In this document: piece by piece, positions 4,722-64,000 of the stretch
How the letters are laid out: each line of letters opens with the position of its first letter
How positions within the stretch are numbered: the first letter of the stretch is position 1
Origin: a virus
IMG/VR virus record: IMGVR_UViG_3300042402_007915
Span: 1-64,000 of that record
Reading direction: 5' to 3' (one strand)
DNA length: 64,000 nucleotides
Notes under the pieces: generated by a model
The model's database searches: none
Told to the model about the DNA's origin: nothing
What the model saw: the letters and a program-made list of their open reading frames with translations, nothing else
Position numbers and translations under genes: made by a program

Positions 4722-4742
4722 GAACTAACGCGCCGAAGGCGC
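4722..4742 (-). promoter_or_regulatory. GAAC-N4-stem-GAA-stem hairpin element (putative template-strand hairpin promoter)
   Basis: Plus strand GAAC TAAC GCGCC GAA GGCGC; one of about 18 copies upstream of leftward genes. Confidence 0.6.
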
Positions 4743-4785
4743 ACGAAACAAACCCCCTCCCACTTGCGTGAGAGGGGGTCGGGGA

Positions 4786-5961: not shown

Positions 5962-5990
5962 AGGCCAAGGCTGACGAAGTCAGCCTTGGC

Positions 5991-13199: not shown

Positions 13200-13360
13200 A
13201 TTGGAATGGGAATGGGATAATGGGAAGGAGTGGGATGGAACTGCAATGGGATAATACCTGGAAAGGAACTGGGATAAGACTGCAATGGGATAAGGGGAAG
13301 GAACTGGGATAAACTGTAATGGGATAACTGCAATGGGATAAACTGCAATGGGATAATACC
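13200..13360. repeat. iteron-like direct repeats ACTGYAATGGGATAA / TGGGATAA (candidate origin)
   Basis: Five 15-mers (13240, 13279, 13313, 13327, 13342) and about eight TGGGATAA cores in a ~1.2-kb non-coding tract. Confidence 0.75.
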
Positions 13361-14236
13361 TGGTCCTCTCCACAAACATATAATATTAACAACTAACCCC
13401 TCGCACACGTACTTCTCACTTATCTCTCACTACACTCTCACTTAGGTCTGAACATCTAACTCTCTCAAGGTATATGTGTTTGGTTACTATGTTTGGTTTA
13501 GTTTGAATATTTATACCCCTGGGGTCCGGGGGTTGAAGTACCTTGTTTGGTTGATAGGTAATCCGTTTTTTCTCGGGTTTAGAGTTTTGGTTGGTGTTGG
13601 GACCCTGGGGGTTAGTGTATTTATTGACCTTGAGACATAAAGAGGTGGCGCGAACCCTCTCACGACACCCGAATCCCAGTTCCTAAACCTCTCCAGGTTC
13701 ACATTTCAGTATCATTTCGGTGACAGATTTGTGACAGCACTGTCCGGAAGGACTGATTATTTTATTCTTTCTCTTATGCAAGAAACACTTATACCCCGCA
13801 GGTCTTATCTGCAGGGTCCGATTCCAGTTTTGCTGGTCCTAAGTATCTATCTCTACCCTTCACTAATGAGTTTCGTGCTGGTTCATCCCCTCTAAGGATC
13901 TCCAGTTCACCATACATGCATTGTAGGATTGGTGTCTGATAGTTTTGACAGTTAGGTTGGTATGAAAGATTTGGGTTATTGTGTATTCCAGTGCAGATGT
14001 TCTCCAACTCGGGAGTAGTCCGGGAGAGGAACCAATAACCGATCCGGGTTTGTTTATAGCATTGTCCTTGAGAGAAAGATAGATGGCGCGGCTCTTTCAT
14101 GACTATCCTATTTCCAAGAACAGGACTGCTTGTGCGGAGTAAGGCGGCCCCTTCTATTTCCACTCAAGGTAAACTCGCAAGAGAAACATAAGACCGCCAC
14201 CTGGTTTGGTGACGGTCTCTCAGTACAGGTTGATCT

Positions 14237-14722
14237 TCAGCACCGGGGCAGCTCTGTCCACCCAAAGTGAAGGATGTAGGGCTCGCCTCCCTTCACTGTG
14301 AGCTTGACGTGGTTTCTGAATCCCGGTGTGTCCGGCAAGTTCCCGGACATCTCAAACACCAGGTTCATCTTCTCCAGCTCTTCCAGGGGGAGGCCAAGAA
14401 AGGAGAACAGCTCGACTCTTCCTGCGAAGATGTCCCAGACCTCCGCCGCCTGAACGCAGCAGGGAAAGGCCTCGAGGCTGAACACCCCGAAGTGGGGAGG
14501 ATCCTCCTCGAAGACGGACGCGGCCATGGCGTCCACCTCCTCTTGCTCGCCCTGGGACTCGTAGGGCTCCCAGGAGCCTCCCAGTTCCGGCCTCTCGTAG
14601 ATGATCGAGGGGCTGTACGGGGGTTTGCACAGGAAGGCCCGGATCATTGCCAGGCCCCTGTAACCGGTAACGGTACGGGACTTGAGTCCCGGGACCACCA
14701 AGTGGTAAGTGTTTTGGTTCAT
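14237..14722 (-). CDS. hypothetical protein
   Basis: AAGGAGG RBS; downstream of the hairpin element 14737-14757. Confidence 0.75.
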   Translation of the reverse strand: MNQNTYHLVVPGLKSRTVTGYRGLAMIRAFLCKPPYSPSIIYERPELGGSWEPYESQGEQEEVDAMAASVFEEDPPHFGVFSLEAFPCCVQAAEVWDIFAGRVELFSFLGLPLEELEKMNLVFEMSGNLPDTPGFRNHVKLTVKGGEPYILHFGWTELPRC

Positions 14723-14736
14723 GAACACCTCCTTGG

Positions 14737-14801
14737 GAACTTAAGTCCCGAAGGGATTTGTTTGTTTATTTATTTACCTTGAGGAAGAATAGGGTGGCGC
14801 C
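14737..14801 (-). promoter_or_regulatory. composite element: GAA-triloop hairpin plus CCTTGAG-N12-GGCGCC box
   Basis: GAAC TTAA GTCCC GAA GGGAT, followed ~20 bp later by CCTTGAG GAAGAATAGGGT GGCGCC; the pairing recurs at 13043, 15389, 16370 and 18220. Confidence 0.6.
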
Positions 14802-15159
14802 CATTCGTCAGCCAGTCAAGCCGGCGGAGTCATACCCGCGTAAGGGCCGCCCCTCTATTTATCCCTCCAGGTAAACCCAGCCAGTCAAGCTCGGGCCAAA
14901 CCCCTCCAGTCAAACCCAGGAAGGGATGGGGCCGAAGCTGCACACAGGCCAGGCCACCACAGGCCTGGCCCGGAGCCGACCGAACTGAGTGGTAACTCAG
15001 GGAACGCACCAACCCGAAGGGTTAGGTTGAAGTAGGCCTGGTCTGGGGATTGTAACCCAGGAACGCACAGGGCCTTGAGATAAGGGTGGGGTGACTATTT
15101 ATCGGGAACTAAACTCCCCCGGCTTCTATGCAACGAAGCGTGCCACCCTATTTATTTAC

Positions 15160-15392
15160 GAAACAAGAGCCCCCGACATGCCGGGGGCTCAAGGAGACTT
15201 TTTAACGCAAGACGTCCTCACCCAATGGGCTCGGTCTTAGCGGACCTGGCTTGCTCAAGGCCAGGAACATTTTCTTCGAAGCCGGCCGGGACATCCCACC
15301 GGGTGACTTCGCGAGGGCAGCTGCACTCTATGAGCGCCGCACTTTCCCCGCAGAGGTGACCAGCACTCGTCAGTGGTGGTTCTCCAAGGAAC
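15160..15392 (-). ncRNA. putative structured small RNA
   Basis: Starts at the hairpin element 15389-15408 and ends at the terminator GAGCCCCCGGCATGTCGGGGGCTC-TTGTTT; GC-rich stems, no RBS-led ORF. Confidence 0.35.
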
Positions 15393-15500
15393 ACAAACCC
15401 CGAAGGGGAAACAGGCCCTTGAGGAAGGAATAGTTGGCGCCGCTTAGAGTGAGTATTTATAAGAGAAACAAAGCCCCGCCACATGGGGCGGGGCGTAGGC

Positions 15501-16277
15501 TCAGCGGCGGGCCTGGGGCATGGGCCGGCCCAGGAGGCCGGCCAAGACCTCCTCCTGGCGGTCGTAGGCGGTGCAGGCCGCCTTGGCCCGCTTGACGTTC
15601 GCCTTCCGGCGAACGCTCTGGGCCTGGAAGGCCACGATGGCCTCCCAGTCGAGGCCGAGGGAGTCGCAGTCTGCCTGAGCGAGGCCGTCCTGCGCCGCCA
15701 TGGCGGCGCAGTGCGCGAGCCACAAGTCGTACGAATGCCGCCCCTCCGCTTCGGCGGCGCGGTGGGCGGCGATGGTGGTCTCGAGCCTGTCCACCCAGGC
15801 CTCGGAGGCCAAAGCGCCCGCGAGGGCCAGGACCTTCCCGTGGACGGCGACCACGGTTTGGACCTTGCGGCCACCCACGACGTCGTTCAGCCAGCCCTTC
15901 TCGGGCTCGGCGCGAACGATAACGAGGAGGCCTCCTTCCAGAACGGCGTAGACCGTCCGGTTGGTGCACGTCCGATGGACCAGGCGCTCGCCGGGCAGGG
16001 GGCTGACGATGCCCCCGTGGATGGTGTCGGAGGGGGGGCAGGCCTTCGCGAGCCCGTTCCGCCAGAGGCGGTAGTCTTCCCCGCTCCAGGCGGGAAAGGA
16101 CGCAGCCTGGGCGTCGACCGCCCAGGCGTGCTGGCGCCGCAGCGCCTCCTTCTGGAAGAGCTGGAACTCGGCGGGGGAGCAAGCGCCCGCTTGCACGGCG
16201 ACCCGGTCGAGGGCCTGCTCCGCCTCAGCCATAGTGAGGGTGGCGAGGCTGTTCACGAACACGGAAAGGTTGAACAT
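15501..16277 (-). CDS. hypothetical protein
   Basis: 258 aa, GGGAG RBS, GC-rich codons, terminator-like hairpin downstream. Confidence 0.75.
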   Translation of the reverse strand: MFNLSVFVNSLATLTMAEAEQALDRVAVQAGACSPAEFQLFQKEALRRQHAWAVDAQAASFPAWSGEDYRLWRNGLAKACPPSDTIHGGIVSPLPGERLVHRTCTNRTVYAVLEGGLLVIVRAEPEKGWLNDVVGGRKVQTVVAVHGKVLALAGALASEAWVDRLETTIAAHRAAEAEGRHSYDLWLAHCAAMAAQDGLAQADCDSLGLDWEAIVAFQAQSVRRKANVKRAKAACTAYDRQEEVLAGLLGRPMPQARR

Positions 16278-16488
16278 GTTGACTCCCGGTCGGTCTTACC
16301 AGCCGTGCGAATGTGGCACTACACTCCAGTACAACACTGGGATGTAGTTGGTCCGGTAAGACTCTCCATGAACCTACACTCCGAAGGAGAAACATTTGCC
16401 CTTGAGAGATGATTGGGGATTAGAGGTGGCGCCGACTTGTTGAGTGAGTATTTATTGAGGAAACAAAGGCCCGCCGAAGCGGGCCAGG

Positions 16489-16713
16489 CTACCCTTGGAG
16501 CCATTTCGTGTCCACCCCGTCGGGGATGGGCACGTTGGAAGGCCACCGCCCTTCATGGACAACAACATCTTCGGCTATGTAGCGAGCCTCCCATACACTA
16601 TTCTGGGAGACTTCGTCCTGGACAACATCCAGGACGGCTTCGAGCTGGTTTCTACTAACCAGCCAGGGCTCTTTGATGGCCCTGTCAATCAGGGCCTTCT
16701 GTTCTGGTGACAT
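16489..16713 (-). CDS. hypothetical protein
   Basis: GGAGG RBS; bounded by the hairpin element at 16729 and a UUCG terminator. Confidence 0.7.
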   Translation of the reverse strand: MSPEQKALIDRAIKEPWLVSRNQLEAVLDVVQDEVSQNSVWEARYIAEDVVVHEGRWPSNVPIPDGVDTKWLQG

Positions 16714-17093
16714 CCTTGCACCTCCGAGGAATAGAACTCCCGAAGGGCATATTTATTGGGGGAAACAAAGGCCCGCCGAAGCGGGCCGGGCTACGGGAGG
16801 AACAGGGCCACCTCGAAGAGGGCGCGCCACCTATTTTCCCTCAAGGGCACAACGATTATTTATCAAGAAGAAACAAGAGCCCCTCCAATCCATTTAAGGA
16901 CAGAGGGACTCTCATAAAGACAGAGGGCCACAAGCCCTCCATCCCCGTTTACGACTGCTCCAAGGTTACCCTTGTGAGTCGAGCGATTCACGCTCACCCA
17001 TGCAGTACGGCTCTGCATGGGATTAGGAGATTGAGGAGGCCCAGTCGCCTGGGCTCCCTCCTCCGTCACCGAACCAAACCCCCCGAAGGGGGA

Positions 17094-17279
17094 TTAACGA
17101 GTGGCCTGGCTACGCAACCAGGCCACTTTTCCGCTCGCCGCGTGGGCAATACCCCGGGCCTTTTTCAGCCACGGGGAGTTCTTTTTCCAGCGGGGGGTAG
17201 CCCGCTTGGCAGCGTAATAGTACTGCCAGGCCCTCCACTCCGCGCTGAGGGCGTTCTCGAGCTCCTCTTCCAGGTCCAT
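17094..17279 (-). CDS. small Trp/basic hypothetical protein
   Basis: GGAGG RBS, ATG 17279. Confidence 0.6.
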   Translation of the reverse strand: MDLEEELENALSAEWRAWQYYYAAKRATPRWKKNSPWLKKARGIAHAASGKVAWLRSQATR

Positions 17280-17427
17280 GGTCACCTCCAAAGAAACCTT
17301 CAGAACTTAATCCTGAAGGGAGCGCGGAGTGCTGATAATGGCGGCCACCTCTTTATTCTCCTCAAGGGCCCATTATTTATAACAAGAAACAAACCCCGCC
17401 CACCAATGAAGGTGAACGGGGCTGGGA

Positions 17428-18830: not shown

Positions 18831-21800
18831 TCAATCCGGGACGTACTCAGTCCATTCGCCGAAACTTGGCTGGTCGTCTTCCGACTCCTCAGCACTAGGA
18901 CCATCCAAATAGGTGTCCTTCAAGTCTTCGGCGAAGCCCATGATGCTGATCCAGGAGGAGTAAATCCCCTGTTCAACCAAGCGGGCAAAGAACTCAGTAT
19001 ACATCTCATCCACCGCTTCCGGTTTCAGGAATGCGCGTTTACGGTTACAGGGCACCATTCCGGCGATACTGTTCCGATACGCATCCTTAGCCCGGAGCTC
19101 CCATCTACGTTGGGTCATTGCAAAATGGAGTGACTTGTCATCACGCAATTTCTTCTGCAATGCGGCAGTCAGCGAAACCAACTTGCCAGTAGACGGGAAA
19201 GCAGGAGCATTCGCGCTGCGGATACGAGCGACAGCAGCCTTTTTCAAGACAGCCATGCACTCTTCGCACTCGTGAAGAGGCTTATGCTTGGTCCGGAAAT
19301 GTTCCACCTGGATCCCAGGCACCTCCCCTTCTTGCGTCGGGTAGGCGTAAGCCGTGTCGAAGGCGAGCTCTGCAACCAAGGCACAGAGTTTAATCTCGTT
19401 CTTCCCACGGAGAGGAGTCAGCTTATGCTTCGAGACAAAGTAGCTAACATATCCGTCAGCATCCTCCGCCGTCAGCAGGCAAGACTCCTTGGTCTTGGTG
19501 GAAATGATATCCAGAAAGGTTGACCCCTCAAAGCACAGGGCGTCGAGAGCCCTGCTGTCTGCTTTGGTGAGCCAGTTCAAGCCGCCGTCTTTCTTGACGT
19601 TCAACTCGGACTGGGGGGTGCCCAAGGGTTTGTCCCCAACCTTCTGGAGCTCGACATAAATACCCGCCTCATTATTCCCACGCCGGTAGGCGATACACGA
19701 GAACAAGCTTTCGCGTGCCCAAGTGATCCAGGGAGCCAGGGCGTCTTTAGCCTGCTCTTCCCGCATTTCAGCCGAGAACTGCTCGTAAGCAAAGTCCATC
19801 GCCAATTTGCGAGCACTACTGGACTCTTGCGAGTCCGAGTTGTGGCCTTCCCCTTCACGGGTTTCCCCGTTCGAGTCGGACAAAGACATAGCCTCATAGA
19901 TGTTCTGATCGAGCCGAGCCAGCGGGTGGAGCGGGACTTTCGTCTTCTCCATCCACTTACCCATGGCATCGAAATCAATACACCGGCTATTCTGCAGGCG
20001 CCAGACAACGCGTTGATCGCGCCAAGCCGCCAAATGAGAACCCTCAGCAGGGTTTTTCCAAGAGTCCCCCTCCCCTTGGATAGTCCGGAAGATCTTATCT
20101 ACCACCCAGAAGAGCGGCAGCCGCTTCTCACCATAGTTCACCATCGGAGGGGTCGCCCCGCTCTGTTCGGCTTTCTGGTGGAGAGCACGGAGGATCCGGT
20201 AGGGAAGCCCTGCGCAAGGCTTAGCCGGGCGGTTAAACCCAAGCTCCTCACGCCGCTTTTCCCAAATTTGACACGCTTTGGTGTAAGCGATGTCAGAGAG
20301 ATTCGCTTGGTACCTCAACGACCCGAAGGCGTTGGGATCAATCCGCTTCCGGAGACGCTCACCCATTGCTGAGTTATTGCGCCGCCATCCGAGGACACCA
20401 AAGAACGCACTCATACCAACCGCCTCCTTAAACTTATCCTGGAAGTAAATCAGGACTTCGTCGGAGGAAATCAGCCGGCATTTTTGCGACAAGGTGAGCG
20501 AATCGAAGGTCTCGGCCGCTTCTCCAGGTATCAGCTTGAGGACAGCCTTATCCTGGTCGAGGAAGTTCTCAGATGAGATACCATTCCCCTTGAGCGAGCC
20601 AAACTTGAACGCCTTCCCGTTGGAGTCAAGGTCGTAGTGGCAGTAGATGTGACCATCTGCCATTTTCTTCCAGGCCCGAAGGTTAGAAACCTTCGGAGCG
20701 TTCGTCCAGCGCACGATCCGCTTGGCGCGGTCAATGCTTTCCTGAATGAACGTACCCCATGCGGGAATCCATCCTTTAGCTGCGTCAACGATATATTTCA
20801 CTCGTTCCGCGAGACCAAGGAACCCATCACCATCCTGCCAAGTAGCAGGGTTGGATTTCTGCTCAGACCAATAGAGGCTTTTAACCCTCCTAAAGGCAGC
20901 ATGCCACTTGCCCATTCCCTCAGGATCTTCCTTGAGGTACTCGATTTTATCGAGCCGAGCCCAGTACCGCAGATCAACGAGGCGCGCCTGATTAATGGCG
21001 TACGCACGAGCCTGCAGAATAGTGGCTTGCCCCACAGGACCCATAGGATCCTTGAGCAGGTAACCGTAAAACGCCTCTTGATCCTCGAAAGGAATCGACA
21101 TCTTTTCGCCAGCCGGTTCGATCCGGAAGGTAGGCTGCCAGATCCGACGGTTTGCAAGGAGTTTCACATCCTCGTCCGTGGTCCAAGCAGCAATGTCGCC
21201 GTCGTCGTCACCCTGGAGATCGGTTACATCATCCGGGTTCATGAAGACAGCAAAAGGAACGACAATCCGGTCGACTACCTCACCGTCAGCGTTTGCCACA
21301 CTCAGCGTCATGTGGGGGAGGGGATCCACCACCTTAAGCGTCATGAGCGACTGAGGGAGAATAGCAGGAAAGCGCCAAAGAACCGTTTCATCGCCTACAG
21401 CGGGAAGCTTCTGGTTAACACCGCCGATCACGCACTCACCCTTGTTCAGGGAGTTGTCCATGACCATGACGACCTGGTTCCCTTCGAAACCGGTGCCATT
21501 GGCAATGTTATACAGTCGCCGCTTGAGCTTATCCTCTGCCATCTGACGAAGGACAGGGATGTCAAGCAAGCTGTAGTCGAGTCCAAGCTCTTTAGCAACC
21601 CGAACCATGGTGATCTGGTTGTTGAGGGTGGTGTTGCCGCCACTATCCTCAGAGATCAAACCATCGACACCATCCTTGAGCAGCTTATCCATGGCCTTTT
21701 GGACCAAGCGTTCGACTGCCGCGGTAGTGTCGTTATCGACCTTGACGAGCTGCAATAGCTCAAAGCATGACTTGATCGTGCTTGCGCGTGACCAAGTCTT

Positions 21801-23000: not shown

Positions 23001-23069
23001 GTGACTCCTTTGTCTGGGAAGCGAAGGGTTGGGGAATATCGACGTTATTGTCATACCCCGCGTGACTCG

Positions 23070-23090
23070 GAACCCACCCCCCGAAGGGGG
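23070..23090 (-). promoter_or_regulatory. GAA-triloop hairpin element upstream of the polymerase gene
   Basis: GAAC CCAC CCCCC GAA GGGGG. Confidence 0.6.
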
Positions 23091-24692: not shown

Positions 24693-24697
24693 GAGAC

Positions 24698-51283: not shown

Positions 51284-53584
51284 ATGAGTTTTTCATCTCT
51301 AGGCGGTGTAACCGCTGCTTACGTTGACGGGAGCCTCGCTCCTGCCCGTTCACCTGCTCAGAACCGTGTCCTCGTTATTGGTGCTGCACCTTCTGGTCCT
51401 AGCGACGAGATCTACGGTGTTGGTTCGATTAACCAAGCAGAGCAGGTTTTCGGTGTTGAATCTGAAGTGATGAAGAGGGTTTGGGAGCTCTTTACCGAGG
51501 GCGCAGATAACATTGGTATCTTGCGTTGCGGTGGGCGTCCTGGAGTTGCAGTTATCGAAGACGGAGCTAGCACGATCACCATTACTCCGGTCCTCCGGGG
51601 AGATGAGGTTTGGGATCGTTATGCTCTGATTTTTGAGCCTCTTGACGGTCAGAACCGCCTTGTCATTTGGGACATTGAGGGCGAGACCTTCGTTTACGAC
51701 TCTGCTGGTATCTTGACCGTAGATGATTCTCTGTTCGAGGTTGAAGGCCTTGAGGAGATGGAGAGCCTGCTTGAGCTTGGTAGCGTTGCTCTTCCGACTT
51801 CAGTAGCTGCTGCTGCTGACCTCAGTGGTACTCCGTTCGTTGATGGTTCGACCACTTTTGCTGCCGATGCTGGTACTGATGGTGTCGACGTCTCTCTCGT
51901 AGAGAAGTACGCCAGCCTTTCTAGCGGTTATCACGAGCTGTCCTACAAGGATGCTTCTGCGCTGATTCCTGTTGGCGTTGACTTTGATGCTGCAAACATC
52001 GTTGACGAGAGCCTGAGCTATGGCTTGTACTGGAAGGGCCTCCCCGTCCAGGGCGAAGCTAACGACAAGCTTGGCTATCTCTGGCAGTACGTCTACCGTG
52101 GCGGCGTTTACACTTACTTCACGGACAGCGATCAGTACTTTACTGACGTTCCTGACCTTGAGTTTGCTACTCGCGCCCACGAAGGCGTAACGATTTCAGC
52201 CCTTAAGGCTGGTGTTGGTGGTAATGCTTGCCGCTTTGTGATTACCGCAGGTACTCTTGGCACAACCATCACCGAGACCGACTTTGGTCTGGATATCGCA
52301 GTTACTGCTGTTACTTCTACCAGCACCTACAACGCTATCATCAGCAGCATCAATACTGCTCTTGCTGCGTTCACGCTTGCTAACGGAGTCGTAGCTTCTT
52401 CTCTTCTCGAGGCAAGTCTCACCTCTGGCTCGACCGGAACTGATACCCTGAGCGCTCTGCGTAGCATTGTGAACCTCACTGGCGGTGTTGGTGGGCATGT
52501 ACTCACCCACGAAGACCTCACCGGTGTAGCGGCTCCTGGAGCGGTAGAGGACAAGTTTGAGGACGGCTCAGACGCTCAGCTTCGTGAGTGCAACTTCGGT
52601 CATCAGCTTGCTACCGCTTGCCACCTTGCTTCTTCGTACTGGCAAGATTGCTTGGGTGCAATCTCCTTCTCGAAGCCAAGCGCTTTTGGTCGGCGTGTCA
52701 TCTCTGGTCACCTTGGAAACTCTCCTACCTATACCACGAATGGAAGAGAGCTTTACATCGACACCGCTTCTCAGAATGGTAGCGGAGTCCTTGGTAACAA
52801 GCTGCTTGCAGGTCTGTCGGCTTCGGGTAATGGATACCGTGCTCACTTGGTCACCGATGGCGGAACCAATGACTCTATCGCTTACGGTGGATTGATCCTC
52901 ACCAAGGGCCTTTCACTCCCGAACGAAGGTAAGTTCTCTTACGGTATCGATGACGGCGATGAGGCCCTCGACAGCAATAAGCGCCCAGTTGATATTGGCC
53001 GCCACATCTTCGTGAACGCAAGCTGGGGTAACTGCGTGTCTGGTTGGAACTCTGGTGCAAGATACAAGGCTCCGGCCCACGCTATCTTCATGGGAGCCCT
53101 GCTCAGGACGGCTGCCAACGTAGAGCTGATTGGTGAGAACGGTCTGCTTCGTACCCCCTTCGCACAGATGGATATTCACCCGACGACTCAGGACGAGCTT
53201 GCGGCTGGTCGTATCGTGTTCGTGAAGCCCATCGACGGTGGTACCGCGCCCACCTTTGGTGCCTGCAAGACTGCTGCTCTTCCAAGCTCGGACTACAGCA
53301 GAATGTCTACGATTCGTATCGTGAACCAGCACCTTGCTGATATTCGTCGGATTGCTCGCCCGTTCCTTGGAAGGCCGTTCACCAACGCCGAGCTTCTTTC
53401 TCTCCAGGCCAGCATCTCACAGTACTGCCGCGAGCAGCAGAACCGCGGGATGAACAACGGAGCAGCTGCTGTAATCAGTTACAGCAATGTTGACCGCACC
53501 GTTGGGACTCTCCGGGTTGGCCTCCGTATCCGTCCCACCTTCTCGATGGAAACCATTACGGTTTCTGTCAGCATCTCAGAGTAA
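51284..53584 (+). CDS. tail sheath protein
   Basis: 766 aa; VLVIGAAPSGP N-terminus; STIRIVN...PFLGRP...IRPTF C-terminus. Confidence 0.9.
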   Translation: MSFSSLGGVTAAYVDGSLAPARSPAQNRVLVIGAAPSGPSDEIYGVGSINQAEQVFGVESEVMKRVWELFTEGADNIGILRCGGRPGVAVIEDGASTITITPVLRGDEVWDRYALIFEPLDGQNRLVIWDIEGETFVYDSAGILTVDDSLFEVEGLEEMESLLELGSVALPTSVAAAADLSGTPFVDGSTTFAADAGTDGVDVSLVEKYASLSSGYHELSYKDASALIPVGVDFDAANIVDESLSYGLYWKGLPVQGEANDKLGYLWQYVYRGGVYTYFTDSDQYFTDVPDLEFATRAHEGVTISALKAGVGGNACRFVITAGTLGTTITETDFGLDIAVTAVTSTSTYNAIISSINTALAAFTLANGVVASSLLEASLTSGSTGTDTLSALRSIVNLTGGVGGHVLTHEDLTGVAAPGAVEDKFEDGSDAQLRECNFGHQLATACHLASSYWQDCLGAISFSKPSAFGRRVISGHLGNSPTYTTNGRELYIDTASQNGSGVLGNKLLAGLSASGNGYRAHLVTDGGTNDSIAYGGLILTKGLSLPNEGKFSYGIDDGDEALDSNKRPVDIGRHIFVNASWGNCVSGWNSGARYKAPAHAIFMGALLRTAANVELIGENGLLRTPFAQMDIHPTTQDELAAGRIVFVKPIDGGTAPTFGACKTAALPSSDYSRMSTIRIVNQHLADIRRIARPFLGRPFTNAELLSLQASISQYCREQQNRGMNNGAAAVISYSNVDRTVGTLRVGLRIRPTFSMETITVSVSISE

Positions 53585-54277: not shown

Positions 54278-54348
54278 GCTGACAAAACAGTAACTAAATG
54301 ATATACAGGGTGAGGCAACTCACCCTGTATTCTTTTGTAGGAGAGAAA

Positions 54349-55071: not shown

Positions 55072-55670
55072 TGGAAAGACCACTTGGACAAAGATTCATT
55101 CCAGGTACTGCAGCGTACCCGTACGAGTATTTTTGCGGTGCCAATACTGTTCTTTACTTTAACGGTACCCCCGCCCTAGAGATTGCAGGGCTAAGCTTCA
55201 CCATCGTGGAAGGTAAGCGGCCACTCTATGGTTACTCCTCGAGGTTCTTTGATGGAGTCGCAAGAGGTAACGTAATCGTAGAAGGCTCACTACTTGTCAA
55301 TATGGTAGACAGTGCATATCTAGTAGGTCTCCTGGATGGAGTAGTACCAACGACTCCTCAGGGTAGAAGTGCCCTCGCAACGGGATTATCTCCAGATCTA
55401 AGCTGGGACGATTTGGAAGATACCCCAACAGTCGGAGTAAGAGACCTTGTGAGTTATAGAGGCAACCCCCATGATAGGGGTGTAGGTTTTTACATCAAAG
55501 TAGTTATGGGCGCGCAAGATGGAAGTGGCAATAGACTCCTTGGTAATTCAAGTGCTGGCTTTTCTCTAACTGGTCTTACCTTCACTGGACGTGGGAGTAG
55601 TATTCAGGTAGATGAGCAAGTCATAGTTGAACAGCACATGTTTTTGGCACGCAACTTTGTGCCAAACTAA
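55071..55670 (+). CDS. tail tube-like paralogue 3
   Basis: FCGA, KRPLYGY, RGNVIVEGSL, EQHMFLAR. Confidence 0.65.
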   Translation: MERPLGQRFIPGTAAYPYEYFCGANTVLYFNGTPALEIAGLSFTIVEGKRPLYGYSSRFFDGVARGNVIVEGSLLVNMVDSAYLVGLLDGVVPTTPQGRSALATGLSPDLSWDDLEDTPTVGVRDLVSYRGNPHDRGVGFYIKVVMGAQDGSGNRLLGNSSAGFSLTGLTFTGRGSSIQVDEQVIVEQHMFLARNFVPN

Positions 55671-56511: not shown

Positions 56512-57183
56512 ATGCTCGACATCAAGAAGATTGTCGAGAGTGAGGGACTGTATAGAACGAGCCTCCCTTTCGGAGGCTCGTTTACTTGGCGCCTCTTAAC
56601 TCTCAAAGAATACAACGCCTTCGCTTCCCTCAAGGACTCCGGTACCATTAACGACTATGAGTTCTACACAAAGGTGTTTGAGTACTGTTTTGTGGGGAAT
56701 CCTTTACTCATTGATGGAAGCATGCCAATGGGTATTATCTTCGGGATTGGACGGCTAATCATTGACCTGTCAGGACACAAAGACGCAGAGCAAGAGAAGG
56801 CTGAACTTGAGATTGCTCGCCAAAACTATCCCAGGAATACTCTGCTTGAGTACATGAAAAGAGTAATACTTAGAACGTTTTCAACGTATACTCCAGAAAT
56901 TATTGAGAATTGGACAAGGGAAAAAATCCTAGAAAGATTTGTCTTGGCAGAGTCTGTCTTGGCTGATGCTACGGGATACACCCCAATCTCAATGGACAAC
57001 ATTCTGTCTCCGCAAGAGGCGAAGAAGAAGGCAAAGAAGAAGGAGAAGATTGACTTCGAGAAGGAAAACAGAGCACTCGAAAAGTCTCTTGGTAAGAACG
57101 GACAGCACTTTGTTGAGAACACTCCAACTGATCCAGAGTATGAAAAGCGTCTTCGGATAGCGAAGGCGATGGGAGGTAGGTAG
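56512..57183 (+). CDS. putative tail assembly chaperone 2
   Basis: Position; WRLLTLKEY. Confidence 0.55.
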   Translation: MLDIKKIVESEGLYRTSLPFGGSFTWRLLTLKEYNAFASLKDSGTINDYEFYTKVFEYCFVGNPLLIDGSMPMGIIFGIGRLIIDLSGHKDAEQEKAELEIARQNYPRNTLLEYMKRVILRTFSTYTPEIIENWTREKILERFVLAESVLADATGYTPISMDNILSPQEAKKKAKKKEKIDFEKENRALEKSLGKNGQHFVENTPTDPEYEKRLRIAKAMGGR

Positions 57184-60100
57184 TGGCATTTGAATCGTTT
57201 AGGGGCCCAGACATTTGGAGCAGTGAAGAGGCTCCGAACTCAAATGCAAACCTGTACAACTCGGGACAGTTCGCCGTTGCTGCAGCAGTAGCCGGTGGGG
57301 GTCTTTACGCTGGGTACAAGTTTAACAATAACTCGATGTACCCAATGATTGAAGGTGCGTCAGATAAGTTTAGACGTATTGGTAACCTGACCCCCTTTCA
57401 GCTTGCGAACACTTTCCGTATCCCTGAGTTTTTGTCTTTCTTTACGTCAGCCCAGTACAAGAATCGGGTCCTAAATCTAAGTGGCAACGCTTCTCCTGTT
57501 TCAGGAGTAATTGAGTGGGGTCGTGATGCTCTACAGAACGAAGACACTGCCGATTACATTTCTAGTATTACCGGGAGAAGTAGGAATGAGTTGGCGGCTC
57601 TTGGGTTCGAGCCCACTCGTATCAAGAATCTTGTTGGTGCTGACAACGCCAAACTGTCTTGGGAAGCAACCGGTGCAGGCAGAGGACGGCTCTCGTTTGT
57701 TCAGAGCCTAAGTGGTGTAGAAAGTCGGGCTCTTCTTTCTGAGGACATTGCTGTCGGTGCTTTCTCTCATGAGGTTAATGCTGCTGCTGGCGGGCACAAG
57801 GGAGAAGTAAACAAGCTAACCGAAGGAATGATGCGGGCGGCTGGCGTTGGGGAACGAACCGACGACTCCGTCAACAAGATCCTAAGAAGTTATACCGCCT
57901 CTGGAAGTACTGCACCCTCGTTTATGCCAGTACCGTCCATGTTGGGAAGGCTTGATAGCTTTGAGGACCTAGCACGACGCAGTACGATCCTTCGAGGTAT
58001 CTACTCGTTCTCTGCAAACCGCTTTAATGAGCTTATGGAAACGTTCGTCGACACTATGGGCGGCGACAAGACCAAAGAGTTCATGCGGAATGTTTTGGGT
58101 GTTAATCCTAAAGTCAAAGGCGGTACCGCAAGCTCTCTTATAGCTCGTTATGCGGGTAGAGCAGCAGCTTTTGGAGGAGCTGTTCTTGCCGTTGACCAGC
58201 TCGATTGGTTTAGGCGTCAGCACTCCTTCGGCCAAGTCTTTTCCTCTGGGGTAATGTCTGCAGGCTTTGCCTATGCCGCCCAAAAGATGGGCCATACTAG
58301 AGTCGCCAAGTATGGGGCCGCTGCTACTTTCTTGGGTCAGTTGATCCTTCCCGGTTTTGATGAAGGTGTTGTACCTGGAGTAGCAAGTAGTCTTGCGTCC
58401 TTGGACGTAATAAGAGGCTCGCCCCTTAACCCAATGACCCACTACAGAAGGGCGGTGGAAGGTCTGCTCCCCGGATTTACTGGGTTTGAGTTTACTGCGC
58501 TTACAGGTGCAGCTGCCCTTCTTGCAACTTCTATTCGGTCTCCAATTAGCGGACAGACCTTAGCGGAGAAAATCTTCTCAAAGTACGGAAACATTGTAGG
58601 TGTCGGACATGGAAATATCGACAACTACTATGGCGTAAACAAAGAAGCTCTCAGCCCAAGAGATATCTACTGGAACAAGGTGTCAGAAGCTGTTGACCAG
58701 AAGGTAGGCGCTCCTATTGGAATGGAAAGAAGGACGCTAAAAGAACGAGCTCTGTTATTTAACCGGTTCGAAAAGCTGTTTGGTGCGGACGCAGACTTTA
58801 CTGCCAACTCACTATTCCAAGCAGCAGAGACCGAACACAAAGAGTTGATGCGGAACTCTTTCACTACTTCTGGTGGCATTAACAACCGAATGGTTGAAGC
58901 CTTACGTGGAGTCGCAAGCAAATACCAAGGTCAAGGCTTGGGCAAGAAAGTAATGATGAACGTAGAAGGGTTTGGCGTTCAGTTACTGTATTCGGTGTTT
59001 GGCGCGGACGCTTCTTACAACAAGGACATTAGATCTGCGATCAAAGGTTTGGGTTTTAAGGGACCGGTTGGTTCGTTTGGTAAGCTCCTGACCGTTGCTG
59101 GTGCAGGTATGGCCGCCCATTCTATTCTCTCGGGTAACCTGCTTGGTTCATTAGCAGGCTCTGAAGAGCTGTCTAGAATCTATTCAGGTGAACAGTTAGT
59201 TGAGGTGAAGAGTTCTAGGGCCTGGGAAGCTGGTGGTACTCCTTTTGAGGGAGGTGAAACTTCTTACTTCAGACCACACCAGTTAGCGTTGATGAGGAGT
59301 AGGGCAAGAGAGAAGGCGGTTTGGGGTGAGAATGAAGACGAGATTTCGCCTCTGAAGAAGTTCTTCATTAAGAACTTCACTTATGACCTCGAGAGAATGA
59401 ATTACTACAGGCGGCCTTATCAGATGACAGGGTCTGCATTCCAAGACGTCCCTATTGTTGGTGATATCTTGGCAGGCTCTGTTGGGCAGTTAATCAAGCG
59501 CGCAAGGCCGATGCATTTGGGTGAGTGGGTTCGTGAGGGCGAGTCCGGTTTGGAGTACGCCTCTTTGTTCAAGGGGGCAAAGGCCGAGCCGGCTTATGCG
59601 CTTGGGGCGCCTAAGCCTGGCGCTCCTGTCAGTCCGTTTGCAGCCGGTGAAATTGCCAAGCAGATGGTGTACCAGTTTAGAGAAATTGAAGGTATGACGG
59701 GATGGGCCAAGAACATCATCCAGCAGACGCTCACGGGTTCAGCTCAATGGGAGAACCCGGCTCAGTCTATTGCAACCTCAAACGAGATGGACTCGACAAA
59801 GCGTAACTTCTGGGAGATGAACTTAGGAGGCGCACTCTTCAGCAACGAAATCATGCGCCGTATCCTTCCTCCAGACAGACAGGGGTTAGTAAAACAAAAC
59901 GCAATTCGTAACGACATGCCTTACTGGTTGCCAGATAAATTCCACTATGGCGATCCATTCACACAGGTTGAATGGGGAGACGCAAGACTTCCAGGTGCAG
60001 GTTACGAGGCACTACATCCAGAACTAAGGGGAATGGACCCTAACGACTACCCACTAATTGCAAGGTACGCAATCTTGGGAGACGTAGCACCTACTTCATA

Positions 60101-61280
60101 CGAGTTTAACAAAACCCAAAGAGAGGTTTATAAGAAACGGTACGAAGGTGGTTACAACAAAGAGCAAGAGGTACTGATTGATACTGTAGCGGCTAATGCA
60201 GCATCAGTAATCTCAAAGCTGGATTTCAGAAGGAATGACCCTAACGCGTATAACACGGCACTGACACCGATAACAGGCGGCCTCTTCCATTCTCTCCTCT
60301 CGGTAGCAAGAGAAGTAGCAGCACCTGCTGAGTACTTATTCCCAATGGGTTTCCGCCCAATGCAGAAACTTACTGGACAACTAAGAACCCCAATTGAAGA
60401 GTACGAACACAGAAGAATGTACGGAACAAATATGGCCTTCTGGGATAAGCCAATCCGAGACTGGTTCCGTCCTGCTGCTTACAGTGCTGCTCACCTTGCG
60501 GGCTTTGATGGGAAGCCTGGCTGGAGAACAGAAGCAGATGCGGCGTCTCAAAGATTCGACCAAATTGAATTTGTAAAGTGGATGCGTCTTGCACAGACAG
60601 CTAAAGAAAATGGTCTCAAGAATGAAGAGAACCAATACCTCTGGGCTGCTCAGCAGACCCGCGCAGGAGTAAACCCTCAAGGCTCCCCCCTTGCCATTTA
60701 CTGGGCTCTCCCTGCCGAGGACAGAGCCTTTATGGACGCGTTCGCAAGGGCTGCACCTACTGAGAGGGGACGTATCCTAGAAATGGTTCCTAAGGACCAG
60801 CAGCACCTCTACAAGGCCTTGTGGAGTCGACTCGACAGTGGAGATCCAACAGTCCAGTACCCGACAAGTGCCAAGGTAGACGGCTTAGCCTTAGCACAAA
60901 AAGCAGCAGTCCTCGAGCAACAAATAGCTATGCCCAAAGAAGACTGGATTGGCTGGAATCAAGAAGTGGATATTTCAGACATTAAAGTACGCTATGCTCA
61001 AAACCATGCACTTGATCTTCAAGACTATGGCATGTGGGACAAGCAGCTTAAAAAGTCTTATAACCAGTCCTTTCTTGATGGAGCTGAACTAGAAGTGCCT
61101 GTGCCAAGTGCAATCATGGCGCAAGAGATTCGAAACAGCCTTTCATCAATGGGGGGGCCGCTAAATTCGAACTATACAGTCAATACCACGTACGGTATGT
61201 CTAGGGCAAAGATTGCTGTTAACGATGACAGAGAAGGCGCTATTCAAAGGTTAAGAAGGGAGGCTAACTATGGGCTTTGA
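57183..61280 (+). CDS. tape-measure-like large virion protein
   Basis: 1365 aa after the chaperones; Gly/Ala hydrophobic stretches; RLPGAGYE and ILGDVAP motifs. Confidence 0.65.
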   Translation: MAFESFRGPDIWSSEEAPNSNANLYNSGQFAVAAAVAGGGLYAGYKFNNNSMYPMIEGASDKFRRIGNLTPFQLANTFRIPEFLSFFTSAQYKNRVLNLSGNASPVSGVIEWGRDALQNEDTADYISSITGRSRNELAALGFEPTRIKNLVGADNAKLSWEATGAGRGRLSFVQSLSGVESRALLSEDIAVGAFSHEVNAAAGGHKGEVNKLTEGMMRAAGVGERTDDSVNKILRSYTASGSTAPSFMPVPSMLGRLDSFEDLARRSTILRGIYSFSANRFNELMETFVDTMGGDKTKEFMRNVLGVNPKVKGGTASSLIARYAGRAAAFGGAVLAVDQLDWFRRQHSFGQVFSSGVMSAGFAYAAQKMGHTRVAKYGAAATFLGQLILPGFDEGVVPGVASSLASLDVIRGSPLNPMTHYRRAVEGLLPGFTGFEFTALTGAAALLATSIRSPISGQTLAEKIFSKYGNIVGVGHGNIDNYYGVNKEALSPRDIYWNKVSEAVDQKVGAPIGMERRTLKERALLFNRFEKLFGADADFTANSLFQAAETEHKELMRNSFTTSGGINNRMVEALRGVASKYQGQGLGKKVMMNVEGFGVQLLYSVFGADASYNKDIRSAIKGLGFKGPVGSFGKLLTVAGAGMAAHSILSGNLLGSLAGSEELSRIYSGEQLVEVKSSRAWEAGGTPFEGGETSYFRPHQLALMRSRAREKAVWGENEDEISPLKKFFIKNFTYDLERMNYYRRPYQMTGSAFQDVPIVGDILAGSVGQLIKRARPMHLGEWVREGESGLEYASLFKGAKAEPAYALGAPKPGAPVSPFAAGEIAKQMVYQFREIEGMTGWAKNIIQQTLTGSAQWENPAQSIATSNEMDSTKRNFWEMNLGGALFSNEIMRRILPPDRQGLVKQNAIRNDMPYWLPDKFHYGDPFTQVEWGDARLPGAGYEALHPELRGMDPNDYPLIARYAILGDVAPTSYEFNKTQREVYKKRYEGGYNKEQEVLIDTVAANAASVISKLDFRRNDPNAYNTALTPITGGLFHSLLSVAREVAAPAEYLFPMGFRPMQKLTGQLRTPIEEYEHRRMYGTNMAFWDKPIRDWFRPAAYSAAHLAGFDGKPGWRTEADAASQRFDQIEFVKWMRLAQTAKENGLKNEENQYLWAAQQTRAGVNPQGSPLAIYWALPAEDRAFMDAFARAAPTERGRILEMVPKDQQHLYKALWSRLDSGDPTVQYPTSAKVDGLALAQKAAVLEQQIAMPKEDWIGWNQEVDISDIKVRYAQNHALDLQDYGMWDKQLKKSYNQSFLDGAELEVPVPSAIMAQEIRNSLSSMGGPLNSNYTVNTTYGMSRAKIAVNDDREGAIQRLRREANYGL

Positions 61281-64000
61281 TCCATTCACAAGAATGCAAG
61301 AGAAGAAGGAAAGGACTACAGACGGCTTTGCGGTCGCCGCTAGTCTTGCGCCTGCTGTGGGCGTGGCAAGCTATCTTTGGAAGCAGCAAGTGAAGAACGG
61401 CCCCATTAATCCTGTCTCCTCTCTAGGTCTGAAGAATGACACTTCTGACTTCGGTAGAGAACTTGGTAAGGCCCTAAAGCCAAAAGAAAAAAAGGAAGCA
61501 GCAATAAAGGCCTTCCTGGAAGGAGATGCTTTTGCCAAGGTAGTTAGTAAAGCCCAAGACAGAAGAGCCTTAATTCAGTCTGTACTGATTGGACTGGACG
61601 CTGATGAGCTTGGAGTCGACAAGGGAGCCCTTGCTGACCTAAAGGACAAACTTCTTAAAATCGGTGAATTGGACCAAGACGACCTTGCCGATGACCTGAT
61701 TCGTCCTCTCAGGGAGGTCATTGATACGCTTAACACCTCTGGTAACGATTCCATGAGGAGTAAAGTGGCCGAGAACTTCCAGGAGCTAAAAGCGTTCAAG
61801 AAGAAGATTGTTCCGGCCAAGCCTTTTGGCAGTCGTCCCTCTTCGACGAGTTTCAGGGTGCTGGATCAAAGCGCTCTAACTAACTTTGACACCTTCAGGA
61901 CTCAAGTTAGGTCTGCCGGTGCAAACGCAGGAGACGAAGAGCTTTCAAGAATCTTCAATGACCAAGTTGGAAGCATTAAACGGTTTATCGGTACGAATCT
62001 CGATAATGCTCAGCTAGTCGTTGTCGACGCTGCAGCTGGTGTTAAGTCACTAAACCTTAGAATCATGCAGGGTACTAAGGGGAACATGAGACCGGTTATG
62101 AACCTGCCAGTAGCGTTCAACCTCGGCAACACCGATGCGTCGATGCCTAACATCACAAGAATGGGGCGTGACTTTGCTACAGGGTACTTTGTTCCGCAAG
62201 GCGTTATCGACACAAGAGAAATCTTGCATCAGCTTAAGGAGGGAAAGATCACTCCGGGTAACGTAAAGGGTGTTCAGTCGAATATGAAAAGCTTCGGCAG
62301 CTATGCTCTTGGCTTACTAGAAGAACACTTTGAAATGACCCCGAGTGGAAGACTGAAGTCTCGACTTGGCACCACCAACAAAAAAGCACAGTCTGAAATG
62401 TTTGCAGTGCTAAATGCGAACATGGAGAACATGCCTAGGTCTCTGTCTGCGACTCTAGAATCGAATGAAGCTCAGGCCGAATACCAGTCTCATGTTAAAA
62501 AGCGTGCTGGTGCTAAACACAAGACTGTTTTGCTGACTCATGGTGAAGCTCTTACAGATGCTGACTTCAACTATGTGCATACTTCCTTGATTGGTGGAGA
62601 TTCTCCTTTTGACCCTGGTGTTGGTGCTTCTCGTTTGCAGAACATAATTGGTGGTCGCAAGTTTGGTTTGCTTCAGTTGTCGAGTCATTCTGTTCATAGT
62701 CGTTACAGATTGCCGTTTAAGGTGTCGCGTAAAGACGCGCCACTTATTGCTCGACAGGAGCAGGTAGAAGGTCGTATTGGTCAGTTCATTGCTCGAGGTG
62801 GAAAGGAAAACAATCCGACTATCAGAGGCGGACTGACTCTGGGAGAAGAGACAGCCTCTCCTATCCTTGAGGGAATGACGGGACACAAGAACGTACTTGT
62901 TGCAGTTGACGTCACAATGGGAAAAGGAAAGGGCGCTTATTCTGCGGCAGAAAATGAAGGTCAGTACTTTGTTCCAAAGAACAAAGGAGCAGGTCTTGGT
63001 GCCTACATCACAGAGAGCACAATCCCGCTACTCGACCCCGAAGAACACAAGCTTATGTCTTCAGAGCTACTCGAACAATTAAAGGCAGATTTCGAGGCAG
63101 GAAAGCCGCCGCGTTATTTCACGCTTGAAGAGATCGGCAAGCTTAACGGATATCTTGGTCACTCAACGCTTGGTAACAGGACTGTAAGGATTGATCCTCG
63201 TATGCTCGGCGCGTATATGGGTATTGCAGAGACAACAAGTGCTTCTGGAAAGAAGCAAATTCACCTGACATCTCGAGCTGTTAGAAAGGCTAGCGCAGGC
63301 AAAGTCTTCTCCACCTCGACAGTAAAAGGAACTTATAGAGCAACGAGAACTGCTTCTATCCGGCGAGATCTATCTACTTATGGTAGGACTAACTTGGTAG
63401 ACGGAAGACTTGTCAGAGAAGACGTATTCGACCGCATTCTCACTGACGTAAGTGGTGTAAAAAGCGGAGCCGGCCTAAACATCAAGGGTTCGTTTATCAC
63501 GGGCTCTGGAGACGTGCTGAAGAAGTCTGCTGCAAACAGGGCCAACTTCCTATTGACCTCCGCCGCTGTCTCTCTAGGTCAAAAGCACTCCAACCTCCTT
63601 CATGAAATGACTGGTAAAGTAAGCAGCTCGGAAGAACACTCCAGTTACCTGTTTAACAAGATTGCCACAGCTTTCGAAGCGGGACAAATCTCGGAAAGCC
63701 AAGCAGCCAATAGCTTATCTCTACCTTGGTGGGGAGGAGGCAGAGGAACAGGTAAAGGCGCTTACGCTCCGGAAATGAAGTCTATCGCAGATGAAATGCT
63801 TAAGCGTTCGCAAGAGACTACAGAGCAAGGAAAGAAGTGGGCTGCCCTGCTTGAGCTAACAGAAAAAGGACTTCAGGTAGGTGTGGATACTGTCACGCAG
63901 GGTACGGGACACGGAGATTACGGACTGGGTCGCGCATCTATTGAACCGAGAGCAATCGGGTTCATTCGCATGTCTCTCCAGGACATGGGTTTTGACAGCA
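61270..64000 (+). CDS. large virion protein, possible virion RNA polymerase (3'-truncated)
   Basis: ATG 61270 with GGAGG RBS; the frame appears open to the window end (spot-checked, about 910 codons); beta-like motifs GHKNVLVAV...ENEGQYFV and VRKASAGKVFSTSTVKG. Confidence 0.5.
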   Translation, partial: MGFDPFTRMQEKKERTTDGFAVAASLAPAVGVASYLWKQQVKNGPINPVSSLGLKNDTSDFGRELGKALKPKEKKEAAIKAFLEGDAFAKVVSKAQDRRALIQSVLIGLDADELGVDKGALADLKDKLLKIGELDQDDLADDLIRPLREVIDTLNTSGNDSMRSKVAENFQELKAFKKKIVPAKPFGSRPSSTSFRVLDQSALTNFDTFRTQVRSAGANAGDEELSRIFNDQVGSIKRFIGTNLDNAQLVVVDAAAGVKSLNLRIMQGTKGNMRPVMNLPVAFNLGNTDASMPNITRMGRDFATGYFVPQGVIDTREILHQLKEGKITPGNVKGVQSNMKSFGSYALGLLEEHFEMTPSGRLKSRLGTTNKKAQSEMFAVLNANMENMPRSLSATLESNEAQAEYQSHVKKRAGAKHKTVLLTHGEALTDADFNYVHTSLIGGDSPFDPGVGASRLQNIIGGRKFGLLQLSSHSVHSRYRLPFKVSRKDAPLIARQEQVEGRIGQFIARGGKENNPTIRGGLTLGEETASPILEGMTGHKNVLVAVDVTMGKGKGAYSAAENEGQYFVPKNKGAGLGAYITESTIPLLDPEEHKLMSSELLEQLKADFEAGKPPRYFTLEEIGKLNGYLGHSTLGNRTVRIDPRMLGAYMGIAETTSASGKKQIHLTSRAVRKASAGKVFSTSTVKGTYRATRTASIRRDLSTYGRTNLVDGRLVREDVFDRILTDVSGVKSGAGLNIKGSFITGSGDVLKKSAANRANFLLTSAAVSLGQKHSNLLHEMTGKVSSSEEHSSYLFNKIATAFEAGQISESQAANSLSLPWWGGGRGTGKGAYAPEMKSIADEMLKRSQETTEQGKKWAALLELTEKGLQVGVDTVTQGTGHGDYGLGRASIEPRAIGFIRMSLQDMGFDS

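What the first reader, a model, noticed from the sequence alone, without database searches (positions are those of the whole stretch)
4722..64000. Candidate self-contained transcription system: two single-chain two-barrel RNAPs and spatially partitioned promoter classes
Seen: a DxDGD polymerase gene in the early arm (18831-23000), a second ORF with RNAP-beta-like motifs next to the tape measure (from 61270), and three cis-element families. The hairpin-T-tract-CTATGG element is confined to 23.1-28.9 kb, upstream of the polymerase. The GAA-triloop hairpins lie at 4.7-23.1 kb. The CCTTGAG boxes mostly flank the hairpins. Known: Thermus phage P23-45 uses a tape-measure-associated virion RNAP plus a non-virion RNAP, while N4 uses hairpin promoters with a T7-type enzyme. 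Inference: a cascade in which an injected RNAP and a YonO-like RNAP read different signals. I know of no two-barrel RNAP that reads N4-geometry DNA hairpins.
Basis: partly seen in the sequence, partly recalled or inferred. Interest (0 to 1): 0.92.

Follow-up and report, generated by a model that had tools for sequence, protein, structure and literature searches.

The report
Phage with two hidden RNA polymerases
An uncultured 147-kb lake phage encodes two unusual one-chain RNA polymerases, one probably injected with the DNA and one made after entry, and its early genes carry two separate start signals, one of which is a tiny DNA hairpin so far shown only for the unrelated polymerase of phage N4.

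Summary
Both polymerases hold up. The 61270 protein (1767 aa, ends at genome 66573) folds confidently (pLDDT 90.5) into a two-barrel RNAP, and its 53 homologues contain no cysteine in 90,726 residues, an ejection-protein signature. The 18831-23054 protein has conserved RdRP/gp64-type catalytic motifs; its fold prediction failed.

The motif reading needs correction. The CTATGG element (23.1-28.8 kb) is a linear AT-rich signal overlapping terminators, nearly identical to the mapped virion-RNAP promoters of Thermus phage P23-45, not a hairpin promoter. The GAA-triloop element is real: 15 copies against 0.02 expected, strand-specific, covarying stems, fixed 11-12 nt spacing, conserved in 42%-identical relatives. 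CCTTGAG is not partitioned: it is the most over-represented 7-mer genome-wide, on both strands. 'Self-contained' is unshown, because about 120 kb lack the two early classes.

Verdict: a new variant of the P23-45 two-polymerase cascade in a myovirus. The novel, untested part is N4-geometry hairpin promoters for a two-barrel enzyme (about 45%). This scan noted that pairing before in other phages.

The parts
18831..23054 (-). Non-virion single-chain two-barrel RNAP candidate (RdRP/gp64-like), 1407 aa, probable start at 23000; motifs DGSG, QIR..KG, RFP, DDDGD, QE.ID..K; 20 Cys
   Evidence: conservation; Atlas RdRP-like clusters 0.94-0.95; colinear match to P23-45 gp64, E 0.0044; fold attempt failed (46, 64, 91)
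61270..64000 (+). 5' part of the virion RNAP candidate (whole gene G000:61270-66573, 1767 aa); stand-alone gene overlapping the stop of the tape-measure-like gene; no Cys
57183..61280 (+). Tape-measure-like protein, 1365 aa, no Cys, after sheath, three paralogous tube-position genes and two chaperone-sized genes; identity inferred from position
   Evidence: same order in the relative L004
23106..28835 (-). Class I: about 11 AT-rich linear elements (consensus TTTTMTTTCTATGG) overlapping the U-tracts of upstream terminators; at 28822, 28195, 27878, 27676, 27322, 27095, 26199, 25182, 24611, 24274, 23106. Probable pre-early promoters of the virion RNAP
   Evidence: P23-45 start-site table; conserved upstream of the nvRNAP gene in distant relatives L042, L043, L045
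4722..23095 (-). Class II: template-strand C-GAA-G triloop hairpins (3-7 bp) with coding-strand GTTC/ATTC 11-12 nt from the loop centre; centres at 23084, 18591, 18234, 17086, 16743, 16384, 15403, 15017, 14751, 13057, 11432, 8261, 7483, 5955, 4736 (16816 at 13 nt). Candidate early promoters
   Evidence: same element in relatives L002, L007/G001, L011, L012
3680..18620 (.). Densest stretch of class III: CTCAAGG with an upstream pyrimidine run and often GCGCC/GCGGC 11-20 nt before it; both orientations, often as inverted pairs; present genome-wide
13508..17400 (-). Terminator hairpins (two with cUUCGg tetraloops, 16477 and 16779) followed by TTTGTTTC and ATAAATA; part of the repeated cassette border
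51284..53584 (+). Tail sheath: the phage is a myovirus
   Evidence: phrog_16991, E 4e-32

Best explanation
A P23-45-like two-step cascade in a lytic-type myovirus. Step 1: the 1767-aa cysteine-free two-barrel RNAP, encoded next to the tape-measure-like gene, is packaged and ejected into the cell. It starts at the linear AT-rich class I sites (by analogy +1 at the T of TGG) and transcribes about 6 kb of monocistronic pre-early cassettes, ending with the non-virion RNAP gene. Step 2: the 1407-aa non-virion RNAP starts at class II sites, where a C-GAA-G mini-hairpin extrudes on the template strand and sets +1 at or near the G of GTTC, 11-12 nt downstream, as at N4 promoters. The first site precedes its own gene (positive feedback) and the rest drive the early arm. 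Class III is a separate genome-wide protein-binding mark, possibly helping at class II sites. Middle and late transcription is not explained by these signals. SHOWN: motifs, statistics, conservation, vRNAP fold, cysteine loss. INFERRED: packaging and ejection, promoter function, enzyme-to-promoter assignment.
For: vRNAP fold: the top 19 VIA hits are all RNAPs; beta-like barrel in model residues 5-407, beta'-like in 465-1042; whole-length matches to QDE-1 (Z 9.0, 420 aligned, rmsd 10.7), RDR2 (Z 8.5, 337, 4.6), P74 gp62 (Z 8.4, 307, 4.2), gp96 (Z 6.8, 339, 4.6). No Cys in 53 homologues against 12-22 each in nvRNAP homologues; cysteine loss marks ejected proteins in Schitoviridae (PMC11445570). 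Class I matches mapped P23-45 vRNAP start sites (TTATTCYTTTA then mostly TGG, overlapping terminators) and is conserved upstream of the nvRNAP gene in 31-36%-identical relatives. Class II: 15 vs 0.02 expected. With anchor-only selection, stem pairs 2-4 form in 90 of 102 cells vs 53 shuffled (max 65), with several pair types, and the triloop register beats the tetraloop register. The one loop variant in the relative keeps GNA. Four of 11 folded as RNA do not adopt the hairpin. Most copies lie after a separate terminator and before a ribosome-binding site. One copy directly precedes the nvRNAP gene in 4 of 5 close phages. N4 loop is centred at -11 (PMC4496689). Both RNAP genes lie on one contig in a relative.
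Against: No transcript ends or in vitro data. The nvRNAP model failed (pLDDT 39). Two distant nvRNAP relatives with about 10 kb downstream (L042, L044) lack class II, so hairpin reading is not a family-wide trait. Class III of the relative (TANGGGC) resembles the GC-rich nvRNAP promoter of P23-45 (CTAGRGGC) and lies 9-25 nt upstream of several class II loops, so it could be the real start signal. Spacing varies (10-12 nt) more than at N4. Some class II copies (e.g. 17086) follow a stop codon directly and could terminate.
Confidence: 0.5

Rival explanations
1. Two-RNAP cascade is right, but the nvRNAP reads the linear class III box (like the P23-45 gp64 GC-rich promoter) or ATAAATA. The triloop elements are then RNA-level 5' stabilisers, processing sites or weak terminators.
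For: The relative's class III resembles the gp64 promoter motif. A box lies 9-25 nt upstream of about a third of class II loops, which would put +1 at the hairpin base. Distant relatives have RNA-type tetraloop hairpins at equivalent gene borders.
Against: Class III is genome-wide, on both strands and selected inside coding sequence (36 vs 14.4 and 51 vs 13.4 after codon shuffling). Most class II copies have no nearby same-strand box. The 3-4 bp triloop stems are poor RNA hairpins, while true terminators in the same arm use the tetraloop register.
Confidence: 0.2
2. The virion RNAP reads both class I and class II (or class II only), as in N4 where the hairpin reader is the virion enzyme. The non-virion RNAP then serves middle or late genes, as YonO does.
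For: N4 precedent. YonO transcribes late genes (PMC5467207). No sigma factor was found, so late genes need some other enzyme.
Against: Class I already matches a mapped virion-RNAP promoter type. Class II begins exactly at the nvRNAP gene and runs downstream of it, the pattern seen for gp64 in P23-45.
Confidence: 0.15
3. The repeats are mainly cassette borders used by host RNAP and for recombination, like T4-type PeSL elements; the polymerases use other, unseen signals.
For: Population contigs skip whole cassettes between repeats, e.g. 14240-14764, 24340-25093, 27957-28112. PeSL precedent (PMC2839356, PMC4122927, abstracts only).
Against: Neither class has a sigma70-like -10/-35 layout by inspection. 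Strand specificity, covariation and fixed spacing exceed what homologous recombination needs. Shuffling is compatible with a promoter role.
Confidence: 0.1

Closest known systems
Thermus phage P23-45 gp96 virion RNAP / gp64 non-virion RNAP system (PMC10770324)
   Same: Two single-chain two-barrel RNAPs; virion enzyme linked to the tape measure; nvRNAP gene at the end of a pre-early block; AT-rich linear promoters overlapping terminators, followed by TGG; early arm divergent from the late operon.
   Different: Here a 147-kb myovirus; the vRNAP is a stand-alone 1767-aa gene, not fused to the tape measure; the nvRNAP is 1407 aa (gp64 616 aa); no sequence match to gp96; the early signal is a GAA-triloop hairpin, and none with this layout was found in P23-45 bases 1-79000.
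Coliphage N4 early promoters P1-P3 read by vRNAP gp50 (PMC4496689)
   Same: Template-strand GNA triloop closed by C:G, short stem with free sequence, loop centre about 11 nt from a candidate +1 G; cysteine-free virion RNAP.
   Different: N4 enzymes are T7-family; N4 has 3 promoters for the virion enzyme, here 15 lie downstream of the non-virion RNAP gene; no AAAA ruler but a conserved GTTC; function here untested.
YonO (SPbeta) and 0305phi8-36 gp99, RdRP-like phage RNAPs (PMC5467207, PMC2147016)
   Same: Single-chain two-barrel enzymes with the RdRP motif set; gp99 has proposed 21-bp phage-specific promoters.
   Different: No profile match to YonO (E 0.14); YonO transcribes late genes and its promoter is undefined; no paired virion enzyme described in those papers.
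crAss-like phi14:2 gp66 (bioRxiv 10.1101/2020.03.07.982082)
   Same: Virion-packaged two-barrel RNAP for early genes; structural match Z 5.8, 424 aligned, rmsd 5.7.
   Different: Podovirus; no common upstream motif found for gp66; no second phage RNAP; catalytic motif DFDID versus DADGD here.

Membership tests
Two-barrel RNAP (61270 protein) | Two DPBB domains, in one chain in beta then beta' order | tested here: met
   pLDDT 90.5 model; VIA matches to beta subunits (5-407), beta' subunits (465-1042), QDE-1, RDR2, gp62, gp96
Two-barrel RNAP (61270 protein) | DxDxD, upstream RxP and two DPBB-B lysines conserved | tested here: met
   D1350/D1352/D1354, R1204/P1206 at 90% or more, K678/K686 invariant in 57 sequences
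Two-barrel RNAP (18831 protein) | DxDGD, RxP, DGxG, QIR..KG and ID..K motifs in RdRP order | tested here: met
   colinear with gp64; Atlas RdRP-like clusters; one homologue hits PF05183 at E 0.016
Two-barrel RNAP (18831 protein) | Two-barrel fold | tested here: inconclusive
   5-sequence model pLDDT 39, no meaningful matches
Both RNAPs | Template-dependent RNA synthesis | not testable with these tools
   needs enzyme assay
P23-45-type system | vRNAP fused to the tape measure protein | tested here: not met
   separate ORFs 57183-61280 and 61270-66573, also separate in relatives L004 and L005
P23-45-type system | AT-rich linear pre-early promoter upstream of the nvRNAP gene | tested here: met
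   sequence match only: class I versus mapped TSS motif
P23-45-type system | GC-rich linear nvRNAP promoter | tested here: inconclusive
   class III resembles it in the relative but is genome-wide and bidirectional
Virion (ejected) RNAP | Present in virions and delivered to the cell | not testable with these tools
   indirect: tail-module position and no Cys in 53 homologues
N4-type hairpin promoter | Template-strand GNA triloop, C:G closing pair, structure-conserved stem | tested here: met
N4-type hairpin promoter | Loop centred at -11 of a mapped start site | not testable with these tools
   10-12 nt to a conserved G; no 5' ends available
N4-type hairpin promoter | Read by a T7-family virion RNAP | tested here: inconclusive
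   both candidate enzymes are two-barrel type; no T7-type RNAP appeared among the scanned ORFs, but the listing was truncated and not all ORFs were scanned
YonO family | Profile similarity to YonO | tested here: inconclusive
   hhalign E 0.14 against a single sequence

The most novel reading that the evidence does not exclude
A single-chain two-barrel (RNAi-RdRP-like) RNA polymerase initiates, without a sigma factor, at extruded template-strand GAA mini-hairpins in N4 geometry, a convergent promoter mechanism in an unrelated fold. It is switched on by a new, widespread family of cysteine-free stand-alone virion RNAPs ejected through a contractile tail.
Probability: 0.45. Interest if true: 0.85.

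Novelty: new variant of a known kind. Interest (0 to 1): 0.68.

Why it matters
How single-chain two-barrel RNAPs find promoters is open: the YonO promoter is undefined and phi14:2 gp66 has no known motif. This genome gives two enzymes and two sharply defined, statistically strong candidate signals that can be tested on synthetic templates without culturing the phage. It also defines a roughly 1700-aa virion RNAP family (67 representatives at E up to 0.001) invisible to Pfam, PHROGs and PDB sequence search. Its best Foldseek matches are uncharacterised proteins of cultured phages (Acinetobacter ME3; weaker, Microcystis LMM01 and MaMV-DC), where virion and in vivo tests are possible. A compact orthogonal polymerase-promoter pair would also be a useful tool.

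Tried and rejected
Pfam, PHROGs, PDB-sequence and GenBank-phage searches gave no hit for either RNAP. Profile comparison of the two RNAP families with each other, of the vRNAP with gp96, of the nvRNAP with YonO (104) and of the tape-measure-like protein with the vRNAP family (112) gave nothing significant. Foldseek PDB had no E under 0.001 for the vRNAP model, although all listed rows were RNAP subunits. Single-protein scans of IMG/VR found no relatives; alignment scans did. No RNA holder listed; the RNA-labelled run laid is probably DNA and contigs cannot show ends. Sigma70_r2 and SSB families were not found in the genome. Could not search the 133-kb record of the distant relative L042 for a vRNAP (110). 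Rejected: class I as a hairpin promoter (variable or missing hairpin); class II as cUUCGg terminators (wrong register in covarying copies); class III as a codon artefact or as a partitioned promoter class. Host not identified.

Full report
Setting. The window is bases 1-64000 of a 147,225-bp virus record, 99% complete by CheckV, found in lake-water metagenomes of many studies. It is a myovirus with terminase, portal, capsid and sheath genes on the + strand from 29.7 kb. A leftward arm of small genes runs from 29 kb to the window start, and leftward replication genes (DNA polymerase III, primase, RecA, ThyX) lie at 96-147 kb. The host is unknown.

The polymerase at 61270. The ORF ends at genome position 66573 (1767 aa) and overlaps the stop of the 1365-aa gene before it. 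A search of cluster representatives gave 67 relatives, most 1650-1800 aa. The catalytic DxDGD, the upstream RxP and two lysines are conserved. With 57 sequences, residues 481-1530 folded at pLDDT 90.5, pTM 0.89. The top 19 structural matches are all RNA polymerases: beta-type subunits over the first 400 residues, beta'-type over the rest, and whole-length matches to QDE-1, RDR2, P74-26 gp62 and P23-45 gp96. Z values are modest (9.8 and below), but their consistency is decisive. All 53 full-length homologues lack cysteine (0 in 90,726 residues), as do the neighbouring tape-measure-like protein and the SNase-domain protein at 30602, while nvRNAP homologues carry 12-22 each. Cysteine loss is a described trait of ejected proteins in N4-like phages (PMC11445570). 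Ejection is inferred, not shown. Unlike P23-45 gp96, the enzyme is a separate gene, also in relatives.

The polymerase at 18831-23054. Fourteen homologues (27-41% identity in alignment A6) keep DDDGD and the RdRP-type motifs around it. The profile aligns colinearly with P23-45 gp64 from the catalytic barrel to the trigger helix (E 0.0044, pairwise) but not with YonO. The language-model search returns RdRP-bearing clusters at 0.94-0.95. My fold attempt used only 5 sequences and failed. I rate it an RNAP at about 0.9 on motif evidence. One IMG/VR contig of a relative carries both genes in the same divergent layout.

Class I (23.1-28.8 kb). Seven near-perfect and four looser copies of TTTTMTTTCTATGG lie on the coding strand and nowhere else. 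The preceding hairpins follow stop codons and vary in stem, loop and distance, and in relatives some copies have none. They are ordinary terminators whose U-tract overlaps a linear element. The mapped virion-RNAP start sites of P23-45 have the same design: TTATTCYTTTA directly before the start, mostly followed by TGG, often overlapping a terminator. The element also sits upstream of the nvRNAP gene in distant relatives. Best reading: vRNAP promoter, a known type.

Class II (4.7-23.1 kb). Fifteen elements read CTTCG on the coding strand, which is a C-GAA-G triloop on the template, with a 3-7 bp perfect stem and GTTC/ATTC 11-12 nt from the loop centre. Shuffles give 0.02 on average, and the opposite strand of the arm has none. 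The obvious rival, a cUUCGg RNA tetraloop, fails. Selected by anchors alone, stem pairs 2-4 form in 90 of 102 cells in triloop register against 53 in shuffles, with C-G, G-C, A-T and T-A pairs, whereas the tetraloop register pairs far less. True tetraloop terminators in the same arm form a separate set. The relative G001 has 16 such elements downstream of, and one at, its nvRNAP gene, with 10-11 nt spacing, and its one loop variant keeps GNA. Most copies sit after a terminator and before a ribosome-binding site. N4 promoters have the same triloop centred at -11. Two cautions: distant nvRNAP relatives lack the element, and no RNA ends exist. I put promoter function at about 0.6 and reading by the nvRNAP at about 0.45.

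Class III. CTCAAGG is the most over-represented 7-mer of the genome (136 vs 38 expected), with 101 copies outside the early arm, on both strands, preceded by a pyrimidine run. It exceeds codon-shuffled expectation in coding sequence about 2.5- to 4-fold. The relative uses a different word, TANGGGC, also enriched in its late genes. This is a phage-specific, genome-wide mark rather than a partitioned promoter. Its likeness to the GC-rich gp64 promoter and its position 9-25 nt before some class II loops keep a promoter role open as the main rival.

Self-contained? Neither early class occurs in the middle or late regions, which are nearly gap-free, and no sigma70 domain was found. How about 120 kb are transcribed is unknown: read-through, nvRNAP at unseen sites, or host RNAP as in P23-45 and phi14:2.

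Comparison and novelty. The cascade and the AT-rich promoter are known from P23-45, whose authors note that many viral genomes encode two such enzymes. New here are the stand-alone cysteine-free virion RNAP family in a contractile-tailed phage and the N4-geometry hairpins tied to a two-barrel enzyme. I found no paper describing hairpin promoters for this enzyme class; the library is incomplete. Earlier unchecked notes of this scan report the same pairing in several other phages; I did not test those and do not count them as support. Verdict: new variant of a known kind, interest 0.68.

Noticed in passing
whole genome G000; window 1-64000: CTCNAGG with an upstream pyrimidine run is selected genome-wide on both strands, inside genes; relatives use different words (TANGGGC in G001/L008, a CCTACATAG-like box in L002). 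Unexplained phage-specific DNA mark.
   Followed up: partly
window 30602-33742 and 37348-38739: The SNase-domain protein (1046 aa) and a 463-aa protein also have no cysteine: further candidate ejected proteins. The SNase gene is syntenic in distant relatives L042 and L043.
   Followed up: partly
vRNAP model, BFVD search: Best matches are uncharacterised proteins of cultured phages: Acinetobacter ME3 (A0A172Q0S6 E 7e-8, A0A172Q021 E 1e-4), weaker Microcystis LMM01 (A0A7J4) and MaMV-DC (A0A075BUT7). Possibly unrecognised two-barrel RNAPs.
   Followed up: no
window 27940, 27367, 24674, 24059 (- strand); also L002, L007: A conserved stem-loop with an A-rich AACAAA loop lies between the stop codon and the terminator of several pre-early genes; possible protein-binding or antitermination RNA element.
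   Followed up: partly
window 13514-17380 (- strand): Eleven ATAAATA sites, mostly after terminator plus TTTGTTTC; resembles the T4 late promoter word; ATACATA in relative L002.
   Followed up: partly
window 14140-18736 (- strand); L002, L007, L011, L012, L042-L045: ACTCCGC recurs around the nvRNAP gene: just downstream in close relatives, just upstream in distant ones. Candidate autoregulatory site conserved across the family.
   Followed up: partly
window 13600-28800: Population contigs skip or replace whole gene cassettes between the repeated borders (e.g. 14240-14764, 24340-25093, 27957-28112), like PeSL-mediated shuffling in T4-type phages.
   Followed up: partly
window 28930-29075: Three copies of an 18-nt AT-rich repeat at the divergence point of the pre-early and late arms; candidate genome end or packaging site.
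   Followed up: no
window 13200-13340: Imperfect tandem repeats of an AATGGGATAA-type unit in a long non-coding stretch; similar repeat tract at L007 21130-21230; possible origin.
   Followed up: no
window 53597-55670: Three paralogous 200-260 aa genes after the sheath, all hitting phrog_9206 (labelled major head protein); position suggests tail-tube paralogues.
   Followed up: partly
window 57183-61280 and G000:61270-66573: The tape-measure-like protein and the vRNAP have similar-looking N- and C-terminal ends; the vRNAP C-terminal motif is strongly conserved. Profile comparison found no significant match.
   Followed up: partly
L042 13570-18270: In a distant relative, gene-end GC-rich tetraloop hairpins are followed by TGC rather than a U-tract; possible phage-RNAP-specific terminators.
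   Followed up: no
window 5963-5990: A 12-bp perfect stem with a TTC/GAA triloop and no U-tract directly precedes a class II element.
   Followed up: no
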